From Promethearchaeota archaeon (GTDB taxonomy: Archaea; Asgardarchaeota; Lokiarchaeia; Sigyniarchaeales; SOKP01), in the NCBI GenBank assembly GCA_016840085.1, contig JAEOTA010000042.1, positions 1-37,236 of the forward strand: DNA of 37,236 bases. Reading direction: 5' to 3'. The notes beneath the pieces were generated by a model. That model had not been told where the DNA came from, made no database searches, and was given only the letters and a program-made list of their open reading frames with translations. Shown here piece by piece: positions 24,863 to 35,963 of this stretch (position 1 is the stretch's first letter; every line of letters starts with the position of its first letter). The position numbers were made by a program, and so were the translations under genes.

Positions 24863-26230
24863 GTGGTTGATTTTAGCAAAATAAGCGATTTTTTTAATAA
24901 TTCTGCAATACCTCAAAATATGCTAAATAGAGGGCAATTAGTACTCAATAATTTCATAAAACCAATAAAAACATTGTTTGAACAAAGGAATGTTCCAAAA
25001 AAACCATGGAGTGATGATCAAATCGAATTTTTACTAAAAACACTTTCGAATATGGATACTGATAAAGACAGTGATGCGGCAAGAGTGGGAGAAAGAGAGG
25101 CAAGAATAGTTTCGAAATTACATCTACAAACTTCCGCAGGGTTTTGCCATGGAATAGGGAGAAGTGGGTTTTTAACGGCTCCACAACCTAAAGCACCTGG
25201 AGGATCAATAATGTACGAAATTTCTAATTATTTAGCAAGAGATATATTAAGAAATTGCGGATTACCAAACATAAAAGAAGCAATTATTGTTCCATTATGC
25301 ACAGGTATGTCTTTATCCTTATCCTTGGGCGCTTTAAGACCAGAATGGAAAAATAATGGTTCAAATATGAGGAGAACTGTTTTGGTTCCTCAAATTGACC
25401 ATAAATCGCTTTTAAAATCAATTGAACTAATGGGACTTAGAACTAAAATTATTAAAGGTAAAATTTTTGGAGATGCTGTTAGAATTCCATTTGAAGACAT
25501 CGAAGCTAATCTTGATAAAGATTGTTATGCTATTGTATCAATAACAAGTTTTTTTCCACCTAGGGAACCGGATAATATCAAAGAAATCAGCAAATTAGCA
25601 AAAGAAAAGGATTTGGTTCATATAGTCATCAATGCTTATGGTGTTCAAAGCCCTGAATGGATGAAATTGATTCGTTCTGCAATAGATGCGGGCAGAATTG
25701 ATGCGATAATTCAGTCAACTGATAAAAATTTTCTTACTCCTGTTGGTGGTGCCTTGATTGCTTCTCCTTTCAAGGAAAATATTACTAAAATCAGTCAAGC
25801 TTACGCGGGGAGAGCTTCGGCTACTCCAGTTGTAAATTTTTTAATTTCTATGCTCTCTATTGGAATTGATGGTTATCATAAAATGATTGAAGAACAAAAA
25901 CAAAATCGAAAACTTTTGGAAGAAAAAATAACTGAGGTTGCCCAAAAGATTAATGAGAGAGTACTTAAAATTTACAATCCTGTAGCAGTAGCATTATCTT
26001 TGGAAAATTTAGAAGAAGAACAATTGTTTGCTCTTGGTGGAGCATTATATAATTTACGAGTTACTGGTCCTCGAGTCTATAATCCCAAAGAAAAAGCGTT
26101 TGGTACATGTTGTGAAAATTATCATACTCCATACATAGTAATGAATGCTGCAATAGGCTCAAAAACAAAAGATATTACTTCTGCTGTAGAAAGATTTGAA
26201 AAAGCTTATTTTCAAATTACTCAAAAGTAG
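24863..26230 (+). CDS. spcS: O-phosphoseryl-tRNA(Sec) selenium transferase (SepSecS)
   Basis: MDTD, GEREAR, HGIGRSG.L.APQPKAPG.S, P..TGM, DHKS, NAYG, QSTDKNFL.PVGG, Y.GRAS, V.G.R, AAIG. Confidence 0.96.
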   Translation: MVDFSKISDFFNNSAIPQNMLNRGQLVLNNFIKPIKTLFEQRNVPKKPWSDDQIEFLLKTLSNMDTDKDSDAARVGEREARIVSKLHLQTSAGFCHGIGRSGFLTAPQPKAPGGSIMYEISNYLARDILRNCGLPNIKEAIIVPLCTGMSLSLSLGALRPEWKNNGSNMRRTVLVPQIDHKSLLKSIELMGLRTKIIKGKIFGDAVRIPFEDIEANLDKDCYAIVSITSFFPPREPDNIKEISKLAKEKDLVHIVINAYGVQSPEWMKLIRSAIDAGRIDAIIQSTDKNFLTPVGGALIASPFKENITKISQAYAGRASATPVVNFLISMLSIGIDGYHKMIEEQKQNRKLLEEKITEVAQKINERVLKIYNPVAVALSLENLEEEQLFALGGALYNLRVTGPRVYNPKEKAFGTCCENYHTPYIVMNAAIGSKTKDITSAVERFEKAYFQITQK

Positions 26231-26351
26231 AGATCCTTAACAAATTTAAATTTTCTATTTAATCAGAAATAAAAATAATTAAAAACTAGAAGAACTATAT
26301 TTTAATAAAATTTATTCCAACTTTACTTTAACAAAAAATAAGGGAGTATTT

Positions 26352-27032
26352 ATGGAAAATCGACTTTTAAATCAGTTTAATAACGTAATTTCTTCTCAAT
26401 GGCAATTCAAGCAAATAGAAGAACAATATGAGCCCTTAATCCCTCGAGAATTATTTGAATTAGCCTATCATACATGTAATAGCATAGCTATGAGAAATAT
26501 TTATATAAAACAGTCTTCAAGTGAAGATCAAGGTGGTTCTAAAGTTATACTATATTCAAATACAAAAAAATTTATTGCAATAGAAACCTTAGACACTTCT
26601 TTAAAAATAACTAAATACTATGGTGAAGGAAGTACAGGGGATAAGTTAATATCTGAAATTCAACCAATTTTTAAAGAAAGAAAAAAAAATTTTGCTGCTA
26701 AAGAGCCTGATATTAAAACACAGATATTAAAATGCATTTTGGTGGAAAGAAAACTTGATGAATGCGTAAATTTAGTAATGTTAAAAGGTAATAATCGAAA
26801 AATATATTTTGCTATTGGGGATGCTCGAGAGTCGGCTGCTGTTGTTCCAATATTCATGGACGCTGAAGGTGCAAGTTTAGTACAATTAGCATTAAATAAA
26901 TGGATGGAAGCAGCTCAAAGGTTGAACCATGAACAAAATTTCCCTGAAAATATTACTCCCGGAATTCTTAAAAACCTAACCCAAATTAAAAGATGGCTTC
27001 TTGATTTAATTAGTACTAATTTGGATAAATAG
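26352..27032 (+). CDS. Hypothetical protein (226 aa)
   Basis: Intact ORF with GGGAG SD; no family recognised. Confidence 0.75.
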   Translation: MENRLLNQFNNVISSQWQFKQIEEQYEPLIPRELFELAYHTCNSIAMRNIYIKQSSSEDQGGSKVILYSNTKKFIAIETLDTSLKITKYYGEGSTGDKLISEIQPIFKERKKNFAAKEPDIKTQILKCILVERKLDECVNLVMLKGNNRKIYFAIGDARESAAVVPIFMDAEGASLVQLALNKWMEAAQRLNHEQNFPENITPGILKNLTQIKRWLLDLISTNLDK

Positions 27033-27181: not shown

Positions 27182-27368
27182 TGGGCCATCGGGGATTTGA
27201 ACCCCGGATCTCAGGTTTTTACTTTTTACAGACATTATTTCTTAATTTCTTTTGTATGTCTGTAGGCCATTTATAAGACCTGCGCTTGTTGGCCAAGCGT
27301 GTTCAAAACCTTGATAACCAATTCAGATAACGGAACAAATATCCAATCATTGGCTGAGCTAATGGCCC
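27182..27368 (-). tRNA. tRNA-Ile (UAU) with three introns (27321-27351, 27288-27314, ~27217-27270)
   Basis: Spliced sequence: GGGCCAT TA GCTC AGCCTGGTTA AAGC G CAGGT CT-TAT-AA ACCTG AGATC CGGGG TTCAAAT CCCCG ATGGCCC A. Short variable loop and A73; BHB helices TCAG/CTGA and TGGT/GCCA, relaxed TTAT/GTAA. Confidence 0.85.
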
Positions 27369-27594: not shown

Positions 27595-28008
27595 ATGGCT
27601 GAAATGTTAACAGACCTCCTACAAAATATCTATAAAAGAATAGCTCAATTAGGAGGATCGATTCAGGAGCTAAGTAACTCTCTCAATTCCTTAAATAAAA
27701 ATATTGAGGAAAAAATTACAAATTTGAGTTCAAAATTAGAGGAATTCTCTACTGAGATTAATCTAACACAAACTAAACACATTGATGCTGTTAGAGAGAT
27801 AGGTGATGTAACAACCAAAGAATTGAAAGTAGTACAAGAGGGTTTAGGTTTAGATGCAATGAAAACATTAATCAAGAAACTTGAGGATATTGCCAAACTT
27901 TCTGAAAGTGTACTTAATCAAGATACAGTAAATTTACTTTTATCAGAAGCGATTGATTCAGTAAAGAATTTAAAAGAATCTATTAAAGAAGAGGAGGTAC
28001 TAGAGTAA
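27595..28008 (+). CDS. Coiled-coil protein
   Basis: Heptad periodicity throughout. Confidence 0.75.
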   Translation: MAEMLTDLLQNIYKRIAQLGGSIQELSNSLNSLNKNIEEKITNLSSKLEEFSTEINLTQTKHIDAVREIGDVTTKELKVVQEGLGLDAMKTLIKKLEDIAKLSESVLNQDTVNLLLSEAIDSVKNLKESIKEEEVLE

Positions 28009-28044
28009 TATATTTTTTAAATTTTTTAATTAGGTGAGAAAAAA

Positions 28045-28467
28045 TTGGCAGAACAACTTTTAGATGAAATGATACAAAAAATTAATCAAATAATGAGCTC
28101 ATTAGATGGGACTATAGCACAAATTAGTCAAATGAGTGCTTCAATTAACCAAATGAGCCAAAACTTCTCTGAACAGACCGTTTCTATAACAGAAAACATT
28201 AGATTAATTGTAGAAGTTTTAAAGCAATTTAGAATCCAATCTAGCAAAAGTCTTCAAGAACTTTCTGATGATTTTAATAATAAAGTTAAAGAATTATGGG
28301 ATAAAAAAGCAATTGAAGTGATTACAGATGAAGAGAAAAAAGCAATTGATATAATAAAAAAAGCTTCTAAGGCTGTTTCAGATAATCTCTATTATGCTCA
28401 ATTGTTAAATATAATTCAATCGATCAGAGAAGAAACTAATAGAATAATTAGTGCAAAACAATCTTGA
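28045..28467 (+). CDS. Coiled-coil protein, possible distant paralog of the upstream gene
   Basis: TTG start after AGGTGA; similar length and N-terminus (MAEQLLDEM vs MAEMLTDLL). Confidence 0.75.
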   Translation: MAEQLLDEMIQKINQIMSSLDGTIAQISQMSASINQMSQNFSEQTVSITENIRLIVEVLKQFRIQSSKSLQELSDDFNNKVKELWDKKAIEVITDEEKKAIDIIKKASKAVSDNLYYAQLLNIIQSIREETNRIISAKQS

Positions 28468-28537
28468 GTTAATAAATTTTTTAATATTAAGTTAAATTCA
28501 TTTTACAATAAAAAAGTAAAAAGGTGCTATCTTTTAA

Positions 28538-29443
28538 ATGCCTACAGGTAGTTTTGTGGTATTATTACCAACTGATTCCGATTATAAAATTATGGGGTAT
28601 TATTTTAAAGAAGGAGAATCTAATTTTAAAATTTCGAGTGATCTCTTTTTAAGACTAAATCTTGATCACTCAAAGAATGAGTATAATTTATTAAAATTAA
28701 AAGATATTAGAATTTTCTCTTATCTTCATAAATTTAAAGGAAAGCTATTACGAAATGCCCATGGAATCATCCTTGGATTATTATTAAATGAAGATGAGGA
28801 ACCTGATAAATATCGCTCTTCTTTAAAAGAAGCTGCTGAAGTTTTTGAAATGCCTAGTTTAAATATACTGAAGAAATCTAGGGAAGAATTTGAATCTATT
28901 TTAAAAGATATCTATTTAGAGCATTTAGAACCATTGATTGATATCCTTCAACCAGACTCATTGAAAAATAGCATTATAAATATAACAAAATTCATGTTAA
29001 GTGGTGGTAAAAAAGAAAGAAAAATTGCTCAAGAGCTACTAGAAAAAGTTGAGAGGGGAGAGCATGAAAAAATTACTGAACTTTATAAGACCGCTGAAAC
29101 TGCTATGAAATCTTCAGATTATGAAAAAGCTGCAAAATTTTATAGAAAAGCAGCAGAAATTGCGGAAGTATTATATATAATGGATGTTGCTACTTCTTTA
29201 AAAGAGAAAGCAGAGTTTTTACAGCAAATACCTGAATTATCTAAAGAAAGAGAAAAAATAGTTCAAGAGGCACGAAATGCTTTAAAAAATGAAGATTTTC
29301 ATACAGCATATATATCATATAGAAGAGCAAGCGAAATTTCTAAAAAATTAATCCAATATGATAAAGAAGAGGAATATCGATTAAAATCAAAAGCATTGGA
29401 AGATTTTTATAAAATAGATCAAAAGTATAGTAAAAGTAAATAA
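28538..29443 (+). CDS. Longin-like N-terminal domain plus TPR/SNAP-like helical repeats
   Basis: Beta-rich N-terminus (IFSY...IILGLLLNEDE.P..Y...L); repeats DYEKAAKFYRKAAEIA and DFHTAYISYRRASEIS. Fold is inferred. Confidence 0.5.
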   Translation: MPTGSFVVLLPTDSDYKIMGYYFKEGESNFKISSDLFLRLNLDHSKNEYNLLKLKDIRIFSYLHKFKGKLLRNAHGIILGLLLNEDEEPDKYRSSLKEAAEVFEMPSLNILKKSREEFESILKDIYLEHLEPLIDILQPDSLKNSIINITKFMLSGGKKERKIAQELLEKVERGEHEKITELYKTAETAMKSSDYEKAAKFYRKAAEIAEVLYIMDVATSLKEKAEFLQQIPELSKEREKIVQEARNALKNEDFHTAYISYRRASEISKKLIQYDKEEEYRLKSKALEDFYKIDQKYSKSK

Positions 29444-30353: not shown

Positions 30354-31487
30354 ATGGAAAAAGAAATTCTAGCGTGTATTGATAATGATAATAAAAAATT
30401 TCTACAATCAGGTCAAATTTCTAAATATATTTTTCCAATGGAACGATCAGAAGCTCATAATAAAAAAATAAGCCACTTAATCACCAGATTTTTTATAATA
30501 TCCAAAACTCCTGAAGGAGAAATATTATATTTGGTTCAAAAACGAGGAAAAACTAAGAAAACATATCCTGAATATTTTACTGACTCCTCTTCAGGACATG
30601 TAAATTATGAAAAAAATTTGGATTTAAATAAAATCAAGAAAAATGCAATTAGAGAGCTGGAGGAAGAGTTTGGTATACCTCAAAATGCTCTTCAAAAAGT
30701 GCTCTTTTATGATATTAATACTGAAGGATTAGAGATTGCATATATTTTTTTCGGAATTGTTGACTCCAATGTCGTTTTAAATCCTGATCCTAACGAACTA
30801 GAGATTAAATCTAGCAGATTTTATAATAAAACTGAACTTGAAAACCTATTAGAGAATGAGAAAAACATTGATTACTCAAAGCAAATTTGGAAGAAAATAT
30901 TACATACTGATATAATATCTCTTTTTGAAAAAGAAATTGAACCAATAAGAGAAAATCGAAAAAATATCGCTTTATTTATTGGTAGATTCCAACCTTTACA
31001 TCATGGACATATCTATGTTATTAAAGAAATTTTAAAAACATATAAAAAAATAAAAATTGGAATAGGGAGTTCTCAATTATCTCATACATTAAACGATCCA
31101 TTTTCTAGCGAAGAAAGAAAAGAATTTATCAGAGTTGCTTTAAAAAAGAGAAATATATCACCTAAAAAATTCGAAATTTATGAGATTCCAGATATTTTTA
31201 ACGCAAAAAAATGGGTAGATCATGTAATCTCAATTGTAGGGGAATTTAATTCAGTTGTTTCTAATAGTGATTGGGTCAGAGAATTGTTTTTTAAGAAAGG
31301 AATTAAGGTAGAGAAAAAAATAACTATTTTTAAAAATAATTTTAATGGGAATAATATCAGAAAATCAATAATACAAAATAATAAAAAGTGGAAAACTTTA
31401 ATGCCTAAAGAAGTAGTAGAATTAATTCAAGAATATAATGGAGTTAATCGCATTAAGTCTTTACATAAAAAATACATTAATCCATGA
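30354..31487 (+). CDS. Fusion: IDI-like Nudix domain + nicotinamide-nucleotide adenylyltransferase (NadM type)
   Basis: N-terminus LVQKR...K.TYP...SSGHV...AIRELEEEFG; C-terminus FIGRFQPLHHGH, IGSSQ.SH...DPF...ER. Confidence 0.88.
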   Translation: MEKEILACIDNDNKKFLQSGQISKYIFPMERSEAHNKKISHLITRFFIISKTPEGEILYLVQKRGKTKKTYPEYFTDSSSGHVNYEKNLDLNKIKKNAIRELEEEFGIPQNALQKVLFYDINTEGLEIAYIFFGIVDSNVVLNPDPNELEIKSSRFYNKTELENLLENEKNIDYSKQIWKKILHTDIISLFEKEIEPIRENRKNIALFIGRFQPLHHGHIYVIKEILKTYKKIKIGIGSSQLSHTLNDPFSSEERKEFIRVALKKRNISPKKFEIYEIPDIFNAKKWVDHVISIVGEFNSVVSNSDWVRELFFKKGIKVEKKITIFKNNFNGNNIRKSIIQNNKKWKTLMPKEVVELIQEYNGVNRIKSLHKKYINP

Positions 31488-32545
31488 AAACTGCAAAATT
31501 TTTAGAAATTAACGGATCTTTAGGGGAAGGGGGAGGCGCAATACTCCGAATAGGAGCGGGATTTTCAATCCTATTCAATCACCCCATCCGAATAAAAAAT
31601 ATACGCGCAAATAGACCTAAACCAGGATTAAGATTACAACATTTAATGGGATTAAAGATTTTATCAGAATTGACGAATAGTATTTTATCTAATTGTGATG
31701 TTGGAACTAAAGAAATTACACTAATTCCTAAACAAGCTTTAAAAAAATATATTGAGGTTAAAATTGGAACAGCTGGAAGTATTGGTTTATTACTTCAACC
31801 CATTCAAATTGCGTGTTTAAACTTTAATCAACCAGAAAAAATTGAAATTATAATAAATGGCGGAGGTACATTCGGTAAATGGGCTCCAAGTCTTAATTAT
31901 CTTAAAGATGTTACCTACAAAATTTTTAGAAATTATGGTTTTAAAATGGAAATTGACATTCAAAAACATGGGTTTTACCCTAAGGGAGGCGCTCATGTAA
32001 AATGCATCTTATATCCTCCTAAAAATAAGCTTAAACCAATCTTTTTAACTGAATTAGGAAATCTAGACTTAATTCAAGGTGAAATAATTAGCACATCTCA
32101 ATTGAAAAAAAAAGATGTTGGCGAACGCATAAGAAAATCAGCTCAACAACAATTAAAAAAACACTTAAAAATGAATATTAAGATTGATTATAAATATGTT
32201 AATTCGATGAGCCCAGGGGTAGGGCTTTCTTTAAGAGCATGTTCAGATACAGGAGCTATCATATCCTCAGGAACAATACTAGGTGAAAGAAATATTACTT
32301 CGGAAGAATTAGGTAAATTGGCGGCGAATGAACTTATAAAATATATTAAGAATGGTATTCCTGTTGACAATTATCTAAGCGACCAATTAATACCTCTCAT
32401 GGGATTCGTCAACAAACCATCCAGAATAAAAGTTCTTGAACTTACTAGCCATGCAAAAACTAATTTAGAATTAATTAAATTGTTTTTAAATAGAAATTAT
32501 AGAATAATTAAAGAAAATAAACATTTCATTATAGAGTTCCAATGA
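31484..32545 (+). CDS. rtcA: RNA 3'-terminal phosphate cyclase
   Basis: GS.GEGGG.ILR, IRANRPKPGLR.QH, TAGSI.L.LQ, GFYPKGG, VD.YLSDQLI, TSHA.TN. Confidence 0.93.
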   Translation: MKTAKFLEINGSLGEGGGAILRIGAGFSILFNHPIRIKNIRANRPKPGLRLQHLMGLKILSELTNSILSNCDVGTKEITLIPKQALKKYIEVKIGTAGSIGLLLQPIQIACLNFNQPEKIEIIINGGGTFGKWAPSLNYLKDVTYKIFRNYGFKMEIDIQKHGFYPKGGAHVKCILYPPKNKLKPIFLTELGNLDLIQGEIISTSQLKKKDVGERIRKSAQQQLKKHLKMNIKIDYKYVNSMSPGVGLSLRACSDTGAIISSGTILGERNITSEELGKLAANELIKYIKNGIPVDNYLSDQLIPLMGFVNKPSRIKVLELTSHAKTNLELIKLFLNRNYRIIKENKHFIIEFQ

Positions 32546-35862: not shown

Positions 35863-35963
35863 GCAGACATAGCCTAGCCTGGTACGGCGCTGGCTTGGAG
35901 CGGAAATATTCCCAGAAAGCCAGTGTGTGAATGCACCCGAGGGTTCAAATCCCTCTGTCTGCG
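35863..35963 (+). tRNA. tRNA-Ser (GGA) with canonical 17-nt intron (35901-35917)
   Basis: Acceptor GCAGACA/TGTCTGC + G73; CTGGC-TT GGA G|A-GCCAG; BHB helix TTGG/CCAG; long variable arm; GAGGG TTCAAAT CCCTC. Confidence 0.93.

What the first reader, a model, noticed from the sequence alone, without database searches (positions are those of the whole stretch)
27182..27368. tRNA-Ile with a UAU anticodon: eukaryote-style AUA decoding in an Asgard-like archaeon
Seen: after intron removal the anticodon loop reads CU-UAU-AA on an Ile-type body (GGGCC acceptor, short variable loop, A73). Known: nearly all archaea read AUA with tRNA-Ile2(CAU) agmatinylated by TiaS. UAU is a rare exception in archaea but is the eukaryotic solution, where intron-dependent pseudouridylation of the anticodon occurs in yeast. 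ATA codons are abundant in this window. Inference: this lineage may have replaced or supplemented the agmatidine system with an intron-bearing UAU tRNA, and would need a way to avoid misreading AUG.
Basis: partly seen in the sequence, partly recalled or inferred. Interest (0 to 1): 0.85.

Follow-up and report, generated by a model that had tools for sequence, protein, structure and literature searches.

The report
Self-guiding intron in Asgard tRNA-Ile(UAU)
This is a real three-intron isoleucine tRNA gene that reads AUA with a UAU anticodon in an Asgard archaeon lacking the usual enzyme TiaS, and its anticodon intron carries a conserved hairpin-plus-ACA signal that probably marks the wobble U for pseudouridylation, which could stop the tRNA misreading methionine codons.

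Summary
The gene (27368-27182, minus strand) has three bulge-helix-bulge (BHB) introns at 17/17a, 21/22 and 38/39. Splicing gives a 75-nt tRNA-Ile with an exon-encoded UAU anticodon. The same anticodon arm occurs in 118/134 family genomes, always UAU. TiaS was found in 0/134. AUA (35% of Ile codons) aligns as Ile. UAU without TiaS is published for Nanoarchaeum, Korarchaeum and ARMAN, and this scan found it before in other Asgard genomes. Sampled Heimdallarchaeia keep TiaS, so 'eukaryote-style' is an analogy, not shown descent.

New here: the anticodon intron is conserved. Its 5' end pairs back on positions 29-32, leaving U33-U34 in a loop. A stem follows, then ACA 14 nt from the base facing U33. 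This ACA is present in 78/89 Asgard introns (shuffles 4.9) and 30/101 DPANN-type introns (shuffles 1.3), and in none of 48 other tRNA introns. The geometry matches an H/ACA guide or the T-arm-plus-CCA substrate of Cbf5. I infer that the precursor presents its own U34 to Cbf5 (about 55%). No modification data exist, but it is testable in vitro and in Promethearchaeum syntrophicum.

The parts
27182..27368 (-). tRNA-Ile(UAU) gene, 187 nt, four exons and three introns
   Evidence: orthologues
27352..27368 (-). exon 1 (positions 1-17)
27321..27351 (-). intron A, 31 nt, position 17/17a; central helix UCAG/CUGA; absent from many orthologues, which show the joined D-loop directly
   Evidence: sequence
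27315..27320 (-). exon 2, 6-nt micro-exon carrying G18-G19
27288..27314 (-). intron B, 27 nt, position 21/22; central helix UGGU/GCCA (GUCA in orthologues); absent from some orthologues
   Evidence: sequence
27271..27287 (-). exon 3 (positions 22-38) with the whole anticodon loop
27273..27275 (-). anticodon UAU
27217..27270 (-). intron C, 54 nt, position 38/39 (37/38 in other Asgard families and most DPANN)
27265..27269 (-). guide-like strand UGGCC of intron C; GGCC pairs back on C32-U31-G30-G29
   Evidence: 97.8% of cells paired, changes on one side only
27227..27264 (-). 9-bp intron stem, arms 27264-27256 and 27235-27227, with an A-rich loop
   Evidence: 8 of 9 pairs with changes on both sides
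27253..27255 (-). conserved ACA triplet, 14 nt after the base facing U33
27219..27222 (-). GUAA, partner of U33-U36 in the central helix of the splicing motif of intron C
   Evidence: 100% paired in 45 orthologues
27182..27216 (-). exon 4 (positions 39-73); CCA not encoded

Best explanation
The gene encodes the tRNA that reads AUA as isoleucine in a Lokiarchaeia-type Asgard archaeon without TiaS or tRNA-Ile2(CAU); this part is about 0.9 likely. Three BHB introns are spliced out. Before intron C is removed, the precursor can take a second fold: the intron's 5' end pairs with positions 29-32, U33-U34 sit at the start of the loop, a 9-bp stem continues the helix, and ACA follows 14 nt below. Shown: the fold is energetically available, conserved across Asgard and DPANN, and specific to UAU introns. 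Inferred: this copies the lower half of an H/ACA guide-substrate complex, or the T-arm/acceptor/CCA substrate of archaeal Cbf5, with U34 in the place of U55. Cbf5 (with Nop10/Gar1) would then make pseudouridine 34 in cis, with no separate guide RNA. Inferred further, by analogy with yeast: pseudouridine 34 blocks Elp3-type C5 modification and favours AUA over AUG. The RNA then refolds into the BHB form and is spliced.
For: Gene and anticodon. TiaS not found; also 0/50 DPANN genomes with UAU genes. AUA aligns as Ile: I 36%, V 28%, M 8%, like ATT and unlike ATG. ACA at 13-14 nt from the G facing C32 in 78/89 Asgard introns, shuffle mean 4.9, maximum 13. It includes Atabeyarchaeia-family, Odin-size and other TiaS-less families, and P. 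syntrophicum and Ca. Lokiarchaeum also have it. Independent DPANN-type set: ACA at +14 in 30/101 (shuffle 1.3), ANA/NCA in 53/101 (shuffle 9.3); upper helix 90% paired against at most 57% when slid; lower helix formed with exon 22-26, 76% against at most 56%. Other 37/38 tRNA introns: ACA 0/48 once three mis-parsed UAU genes are removed; upper pairing 12/59 against 86/89. The alternative fold is -40.7 and the spliceable fold -37.0 kcal/mol. Cbf5 with its catalytic GTLDP motif, Nop10, Gar1 and Elp3 are in this genome. Literature: 14-15 nt rule and 5-nt guide plus 9-bp lower stem (PMC4652768); Cbf5 acts without a guide on an acceptor-plus-T-arm RNA and binds ACA ends better than CCA (PMC2018633); an archaeal U34 mutant tRNA-Ile gets cnm5U and binds AUG (PMC3895270); the yeast intron promotes pseudouridine 34 and prevents ncm5U34 (PMC11408192).
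Against: No RNA or modification data were seen. The ACA is missing at that place in both Helarchaeota-type introns, both f4 introns, 4 of 9 f2 introns and most DPANN introns. The loop is 6-8 nt and lacks the T-loop's C56. The base facing U33 is mostly U. There is no upper stem or K-turn for L7Ae and no second guide strand. Cbf5 is present with and without the ACA (25/25 against 22/25), so co-occurrence does not single it out; Pus10, TruA and TruD are also present. The exon side of the upper helix barely varies, partly because my search patterns fixed it, so support there is one-sided. The first two paired intron bases also serve the BHB inner helix. Kin are not independent.
Confidence: 0.55

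Rival explanations
1. The same alternative hairpin serves another enzyme or another base. Candidates are Pus10 (anchored on a CCA-like end), TruD/Pus7 (U34-A35-U36-A37-A38 fits a UNUAR motif for pseudouridine 36, from own knowledge), TruA, or Cbf5 acting on U33 or U36.
For: All these enzymes are encoded. Cbf5 co-occurrence is not discriminating. NCA variants of the triplet occur. Pus10 makes pseudouridine 54/55 in archaea (abstracts).
Against: The triplet is ACA rather than CCA, and its 14-nt spacing is the H/ACA rule. Pus7 would not need a triplet at a fixed distance.
Confidence: 0.22
2. The tRNA works with an unmodified or default-modified U34, and the ribosome or IleRS handles AUG discrimination as in Mycoplasma mobile. 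The intron conservation then reflects splicing order, RNA stability or shared descent of one intron.
For: M. mobile reads AUA with unmodified UAU and a discriminating ribosome (PMC3575796). Many DPANN and some Asgard introns lack the ACA. Intron-less phage-like UAU genes exist.
Against: A fixed ACA spacing is kept while the lower stem switches partner (exon in DPANN and Odin-size genomes, intron-internal in this family), which neutral descent would not keep. The alternative fold competes with splicing rather than helping it. Every chromosomal-type archaeal UAU gene seen in TiaS-less Asgard had the intron.
Confidence: 0.17
3. The excised, circularised intron acts in trans as a minimal H/ACA-like guide, on its own tRNA or on another RNA, as the box C/D intron of Haloferax pre-tRNA-Trp does.
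For: In this family the stem and ACA lie wholly within the intron. There is a precedent for trans action of an intron guide (PMC11408192).
Against: In DPANN and Odin-size genomes the lower stem needs exon 21-26. No second guide strand, upper stem or K-turn is conserved.
Confidence: 0.04
4. The product is not an Ile(UAU) tRNA: a different junction gives UAA or another loop, or AUA is read as Met, or the gene is dead.
For: Four of 68 family orthologues score a 33/34 junction at 4 of 4 as well. The anticodon stem resembles that of elongator Met in relatives. Met-e was not found in this assembly.
Against: UAU is invariant while the 3' end of the intron varies. The variable arm is short, so it is not Leu. 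ATA aligns with Ile. Relatives have a separate Met-e gene. The gene is kept in single copy in nearly all family genomes.
Confidence: 0.02

Closest known systems
tRNA-Ile3(UAU) of Nanoarchaeum equitans, Ca. Korarchaeum cryptofilum and ARMAN-2/-4/-5 (PMC6000648; bioRxiv 10.1101/614032; PMC3239211)
   Same: UAU anticodon and loss of Ile2(CAU); for ARMAN also loss of TiaS and a 37/38 BHB intron in the anticodon loop.
   Different: Here it is an Asgard class-wide trait, with three introns and the anticodon intron shifted to 38/39. The passages read propose no way of avoiding AUG and describe no conserved intron signal.
Yeast pre-tRNA-Ile(UAU) with Pus1-made pseudouridines 34 and 36 (PMC11408192)
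   Same: UAU anticodon, an anticodon-loop intron, and by inference intron-dependent pseudouridine that pre-empts Elp-type U34 modification.
   Different: Pus1 reads the anticodon-intron double helix. Here the signal is a refolded hairpin with ACA at H/ACA spacing, pointing to Cbf5. Descent from Asgard is not shown.
Archaeal box H/ACA sRNAs (PMC4652768) and guide-independent Cbf5 substrates: tRNA U55, 23S U2603/2607, atypical H/ACA RNAs (PMC2018633, PMC6138745, PMC11077068)
   Same: 5-nt guide-like strand plus 8-9-bp lower stem, 14 nt to an ACA/ANA/NCA triplet, and the target U next to the paired strand.
   Different: It is in cis within a pre-tRNA and circularly permuted in this family. It has only one guide strand, no upper stem and no K-turn.
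Box C/D guide in the intron of Haloferax pre-tRNA-Trp; sR115-guided pseudouridine 35 in Sulfolobus pre-tRNA-Tyr (PMC11408192, PMC11077068)
   Same: An archaeal tRNA intron takes part in modifying its own anticodon.
   Different: Those use a C/D particle in trans or a separate H/ACA RNA. Here the precursor itself would supply the H/ACA-like anchor.

Membership tests
archaeal tRNA-Ile3(UAU) | cloverleaf with UAU anticodon after splicing | tested here: met
archaeal tRNA-Ile3(UAU) | Ile-type body (A73, short variable arm, C4-G69, U12-A23) | tested here: met
   body resembles Asgard Ile2(CAU) genes; identity elements are from own knowledge
archaeal tRNA-Ile3(UAU) | TiaS absent | tested here: met
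   not found by two domains and a custom profile; three closed relatives are also negative
archaeal tRNA-Ile3(UAU) | tRNA-Ile2(CAU) absent | tested here: inconclusive
   none found in G000 or among 30 family matches, but the G000 tRNA inventory is incomplete (Met-e not found) and intron-split genes can be missed
archaeal tRNA-Ile3(UAU) | AUA translated as Ile | tested here: met
archaeal tRNA-Ile3(UAU) | expressed, spliced and charged with Ile | not testable with these tools
   no RNA run listed
box H/ACA guide RNA | ACA/ANA triplet 14-15 nt from the top of the pocket | tested here: met
box H/ACA guide RNA | lower stem of 8-9 bp | tested here: met
   8 of 9 pairs with changes on both sides
box H/ACA guide RNA | bipartite guide pairing on both sides of the target U | tested here: not met
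   only the strand pairing 5' of U34 exists
box H/ACA guide RNA | upper stem with K-turn or K-loop | tested here: not met
   none conserved in alignments A1 and A2; so it may work like an H/ACA complex but is not a member
guide-independent Cbf5 substrate | T-loop-like loop with target U second, on about 12 stacked pairs ending in CCA/ACA | tested here: inconclusive
   spacing and U33-U34 position fit (13 nt from the closing G to ACA); loop is 6-8 nt and lacks C56
guide-independent Cbf5 substrate | pseudouridine formed by Cbf5 | not testable with these tools
   needs an assay
eukaryotic tRNA-Ile(UAU) by descent | shared with the Asgard groups closest to eukaryotes | tested here: not met
   sampled Heimdallarchaeia keep TiaS, several with CAU Ile2 genes; no tree with eukaryotic sequences was built

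The most novel reading that the evidence does not exclude
Archaeal pre-tRNA-Ile(UAU), in DPANN and in TiaS-less Asgard classes, is a self-presenting substrate. Its anticodon intron refolds the precursor into a half-H/ACA or T-arm mimic, so that Cbf5 makes pseudouridine 34 without a guide RNA. This would be a second widespread archaeal solution to AUA decoding, functionally parallel to yeast Pus1, and a reason why this intron is kept.
Probability: 0.5. Interest if true: 0.82.

Novelty: new variant of a known kind. Interest (0 to 1): 0.66.

Why it matters
How archaea with a UAU anticodon avoid putting isoleucine at AUG is unresolved in the papers I read: an engineered archaeal U34 tRNA-Ile is modified by default and binds AUG (PMC3895270). 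The conserved intron signal names an enzyme, a base and three mutable elements, so the question can be tested with a transcript and recombinant proteins, and in a cultured Asgard archaeon. If right, it gives an archaeal tRNA intron a defined job, adds a natural guide-free substrate class for Cbf5, and shows that roughly half of sampled Asgard genomes and many DPANN use a non-textbook decoding system that standard tRNA finders miss. The plain fact of UAU without TiaS is of moderate interest only, being known from other archaea.

Tried and rejected
RNA evidence: no RNA holder listed, so no reads were laid. ARAGORN and Rfam on the raw window missed the gene. ARAGORN's A34 calls in this genome (Val AAC, Leu AAG, Ala AGC, Pro AGG, Ile AAT) and its second Ile(tat) at C83 are misplaced introns in Val GAC, Glu, Ile GAU, Arg and Thr genes; rejected. 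A loose arm pattern gave only noise. The canonical 37/38 junction was rejected for this family (1.16 of 4 pairs). Co-occurrence of the ACA with Cbf5 in DPANN was uninformative. Alignment A2 was chosen by eye and leans towards the structure, so the unselected figures are quoted instead. Weak TiaS_TCKD matches in four f3/f5 genomes cover only the first 60 profile positions in proteins of about 380 aa without the FLD domain, and a like match sits beside true TiaS in G157; they are read as a paralogue. I first took G032 for P. syntrophicum; it is Ca. Harpocratesius repetitus. No UAU gene was found in family f28, which also lacks TiaS. Bacterial promoter scans are irrelevant here. Ten literature searches found no paper on Asgard TiaS loss or on this intron signal; the library lacks most subscription papers. 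tRNAscan-SE isotype models were not available.

Full report
Observation. The stretch 27368-27182 on the minus strand starts GGGCCAT and ends ATGGCCCA, with an intact T-arm. Standard finders miss it, but it folds far better than its shuffles (z = -5.3). Orthologues in the same genus share the exons and carry introns at varying places, which shows directly where the exon borders lie. This gene has three introns, each with a 4-bp central helix and 3-nt bulges: 17/17a (31 nt), 21/22 (27 nt) and one in the anticodon loop (54 nt). Joining the exons gives 75 nt, which ARAGORN calls tRNA-Ile(tat).

The junction. I scored every splice position that leaves a 7-nt loop. In this gene 38/39 pairs 4 of 4 central-helix bases, the canonical 37/38 pairs 1 of 4, and junctions giving UAA pair 1-2. 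Over 68 family orthologues the means are 3.93, 1.16 and at most 1.85. In 21 genes from other Asgard families the intron is at 37/38 (3.9 of 4). Both positions leave UAU in the exon. A pattern for the arm with base 34 left free matched 118 of 134 family genomes, and every match read T.

Organism and decoding set. Close relatives of window proteins are labelled Promethearchaeota. The order contains P. syntrophicum, Ca. Lokiarchaeum and Ca. Harpocratesius, and the class contains Helarchaeota, so this is a Lokiarchaeia-type genome (4.68 Mb, 98.8% complete). TiaS was not found by PF08489, by tblastn or by a profile of four Asgard TiaS proteins. Across 400 Asgard genomes PF08489 was found in 184, but in none of 134 from this family, none of the rest of the class and none of families f9 (Atabeyarchaeia), f19 and f26-f28; a second domain agrees. 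I take f27 for Odinarchaeia and f19 for Hermodarchaeia from genome size and listing order only. Intron-bearing UAU genes were found in f1-f4, f6, f7, f9, f19, f26 and f27, and not in f5 or f28. TiaS-bearing groups, including Heimdallarchaeota B3_Heim and a Thorarchaeota genome, carry ordinary CAU Ile2 genes; Ca. Heimdallarchaeum aukensis has TiaS. The genome has Ile(GAU) and initiator Met. Elongator Met and several other tRNAs were not found, so the lack of Ile2(CAU) rests on the family, where all real CAU matches were Met-type. ATA makes up 35% of Ile codons and aligns with Ile in distant orthologues just as ATT does. The UAU tRNA is therefore very probably the AUA reader.

What is known. UAU in place of Ile2(CAU) is published for N. 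equitans and K. cryptofilum (PMC6000648; bioRxiv 10.1101/614032) and, with TiaS loss, for ARMAN (PMC3239211). A scan of GTDB genomes returned about 112 further genes, nearly all DPANN-type, and 50 of those genomes tested had no TiaS. Earlier notes of this scan report UAU with TiaS loss in many other Asgard genomes. So this part is a new member of a known kind, and since the sampled Heimdallarchaeia keep TiaS, its likeness to eukaryotes is not shown to be by descent.

The intron signal. The anticodon intron is more conserved than splicing requires. Its 5' end (GACC, here GGCC) is complementary to positions 29-32: 97.8% of cells pair in 45 orthologues, with changes on the intron side only. A stem of 8-9 bp follows, 8 of 9 pairs with changes on both sides, and then ACA. 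The ACA lies 13-14 nt from the G facing C32 in 78 of 89 Asgard introns, against 4.9 in shuffles; 65 of these are from this family and 13 of 21 from others. P. syntrophicum and Ca. Lokiarchaeum have it too. The DPANN-type set is an independent test, because the search pattern did not specify the intron. ACA stands at +14 in 30 of 101 (shuffles 1.3) and ANA/NCA in 53 (9.3). There the intron pairs with 29-32 in 90% of cells, and its next bases pair with exon 22-26 in 76% (slid controls at most 57%). Position 21 covaries: G21 faces C or U in 44 of 46 cases. The lower stem thus switches partner between lineages while the spacing stays fixed. Other 37/38 tRNA introns from the same loci show no such ACA (0 of 48 after removing three mis-parses of UAU genes) and little back-pairing (12 of 59 against 86 of 89). 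For this gene the alternative fold is predicted at -40.7 and the spliceable fold at -37.0 kcal/mol, so both are within reach.

Mechanism, inferred. Productive archaeal H/ACA RNAs keep 14-15 nt between the pocket top and the ACA, typically a 5-nt guide strand plus a 9-bp lower stem (PMC4652768). This gene has exactly 5 + 9 = 14, which places U34 at the target position. Archaeal Cbf5 also works without a guide on an acceptor-plus-T-arm RNA, anchored by its PUA domain on CCA and more tightly on ACA (PMC2018633), and on other natural RNAs (PMC6138745, PMC11077068). In the alternative fold U33-U34 open the loop as U54-U55 do, 13 nt from the closing G to the triplet, as from position 61 to CCA. Cbf5, Nop10, Gar1 and Elp3 are encoded. 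An archaeal U34 tRNA-Ile left to default modification gets cnm5U and binds AUG (PMC3895270), and in yeast the intron promotes pseudouridine 34 and prevents ncm5U34 (PMC11408192). I therefore propose that the precursor presents U34 to Cbf5 before splicing. I put this at 0.55; another enzyme or base at 0.22; no modification role at 0.17.

Limits. No RNA data were listed. The ACA is missing in Helarchaeota-type and some other introns. There is no second guide strand or K-turn, so this is not a member of the H/ACA family. The loop is not a true T-loop. Cbf5 occurs with and without the ACA, and Pus10, TruA and TruD are present. That pseudouridine 34 would restrict reading to AUA is taken from the eukaryotic case. 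Counts over kin overstate independence.

Verdict. The tRNA is real and of a known kind. The conserved intron signal is the new and testable part. Interest 0.66.

Noticed in passing
window 24863-27032 (+): SepSecS (TIGR03531) and the Asgard putative selenocysteine-system protein (NF045535) lie next to the tRNA on the opposite strand.
   Followed up: partly
window 27595-29443 (+): Three genes of 137, 140 and 301 aa with no NCBIfam match follow the tRNA; earlier notes call them a coiled-coil pair plus a longin-TPR protein.
   Followed up: no
window 31484-32545 (+): RNA 3'-phosphate cyclase RtcA, 4 kb from the three-intron tRNA; a link to intron processing is untested.
   Followed up: no
window 35863-35963 (+): tRNA-Ser(GGA) with a 17-nt 37/38 intron; found by Rfam and by ARAGORN in intron mode.
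   Followed up: partly
L385-L392, L398, L402-L404, L410, L411, L430-L435, L437 (elongator tRNA-Met genes): Met-e(CAU) introns across Asgard classes often begin with a near copy of exon 2 and keep a GGGTCAGA/GGGCTAGA motif, which suggests another intron-dependent anticodon modification.
   Followed up: no
L395 (G107), L141 (G336), L140 (G325), L104 (G183): Phage-like UAU tRNA genes without an anticodon intron, three of them in TiaS-bearing genomes; probably proviral or binned-in viral DNA.
   Followed up: no
G304-G308 (family f28): No TiaS and no UAU gene found with my patterns; how AUA is read there is open.
   Followed up: partly
G026:C79:19227-19409, G163-G165, G157:C1:1110941-1111111: Proteins of about 380 aa match only the first 60 positions of TiaS_TCKD and lack the FLD domain: a TiaS-kinase-like paralogue of unknown role.
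   Followed up: no
L262, L268, L315, L332, L375: DPANN-type UAU genes (two labelled Aenigmatarchaeota) also have the intron at 38/39, as this Asgard family does: a parallel shift or a transfer.
   Followed up: no
L277 (CP070655.1), L366, and records labelled 'uncultured Methanosarcinales': DPANN-type UAU genes in records labelled Omnitrophota, Acidilobaceae or Methanosarcinales; the labels are probably wrong.
   Followed up: no
L001-L024, L107-L135: The acceptor stem of the UAU gene varies widely within one family (GGGCCAT, GGACTCG, GCTCCCG, GGTCCAT) while the anticodon arm and intron start stay fixed.
   Followed up: no
G000:C83:31299-32324 and 32413-32516: The cbf5 gene lies directly after tRNA-Lys(UUU) on the same strand.
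   Followed up: no
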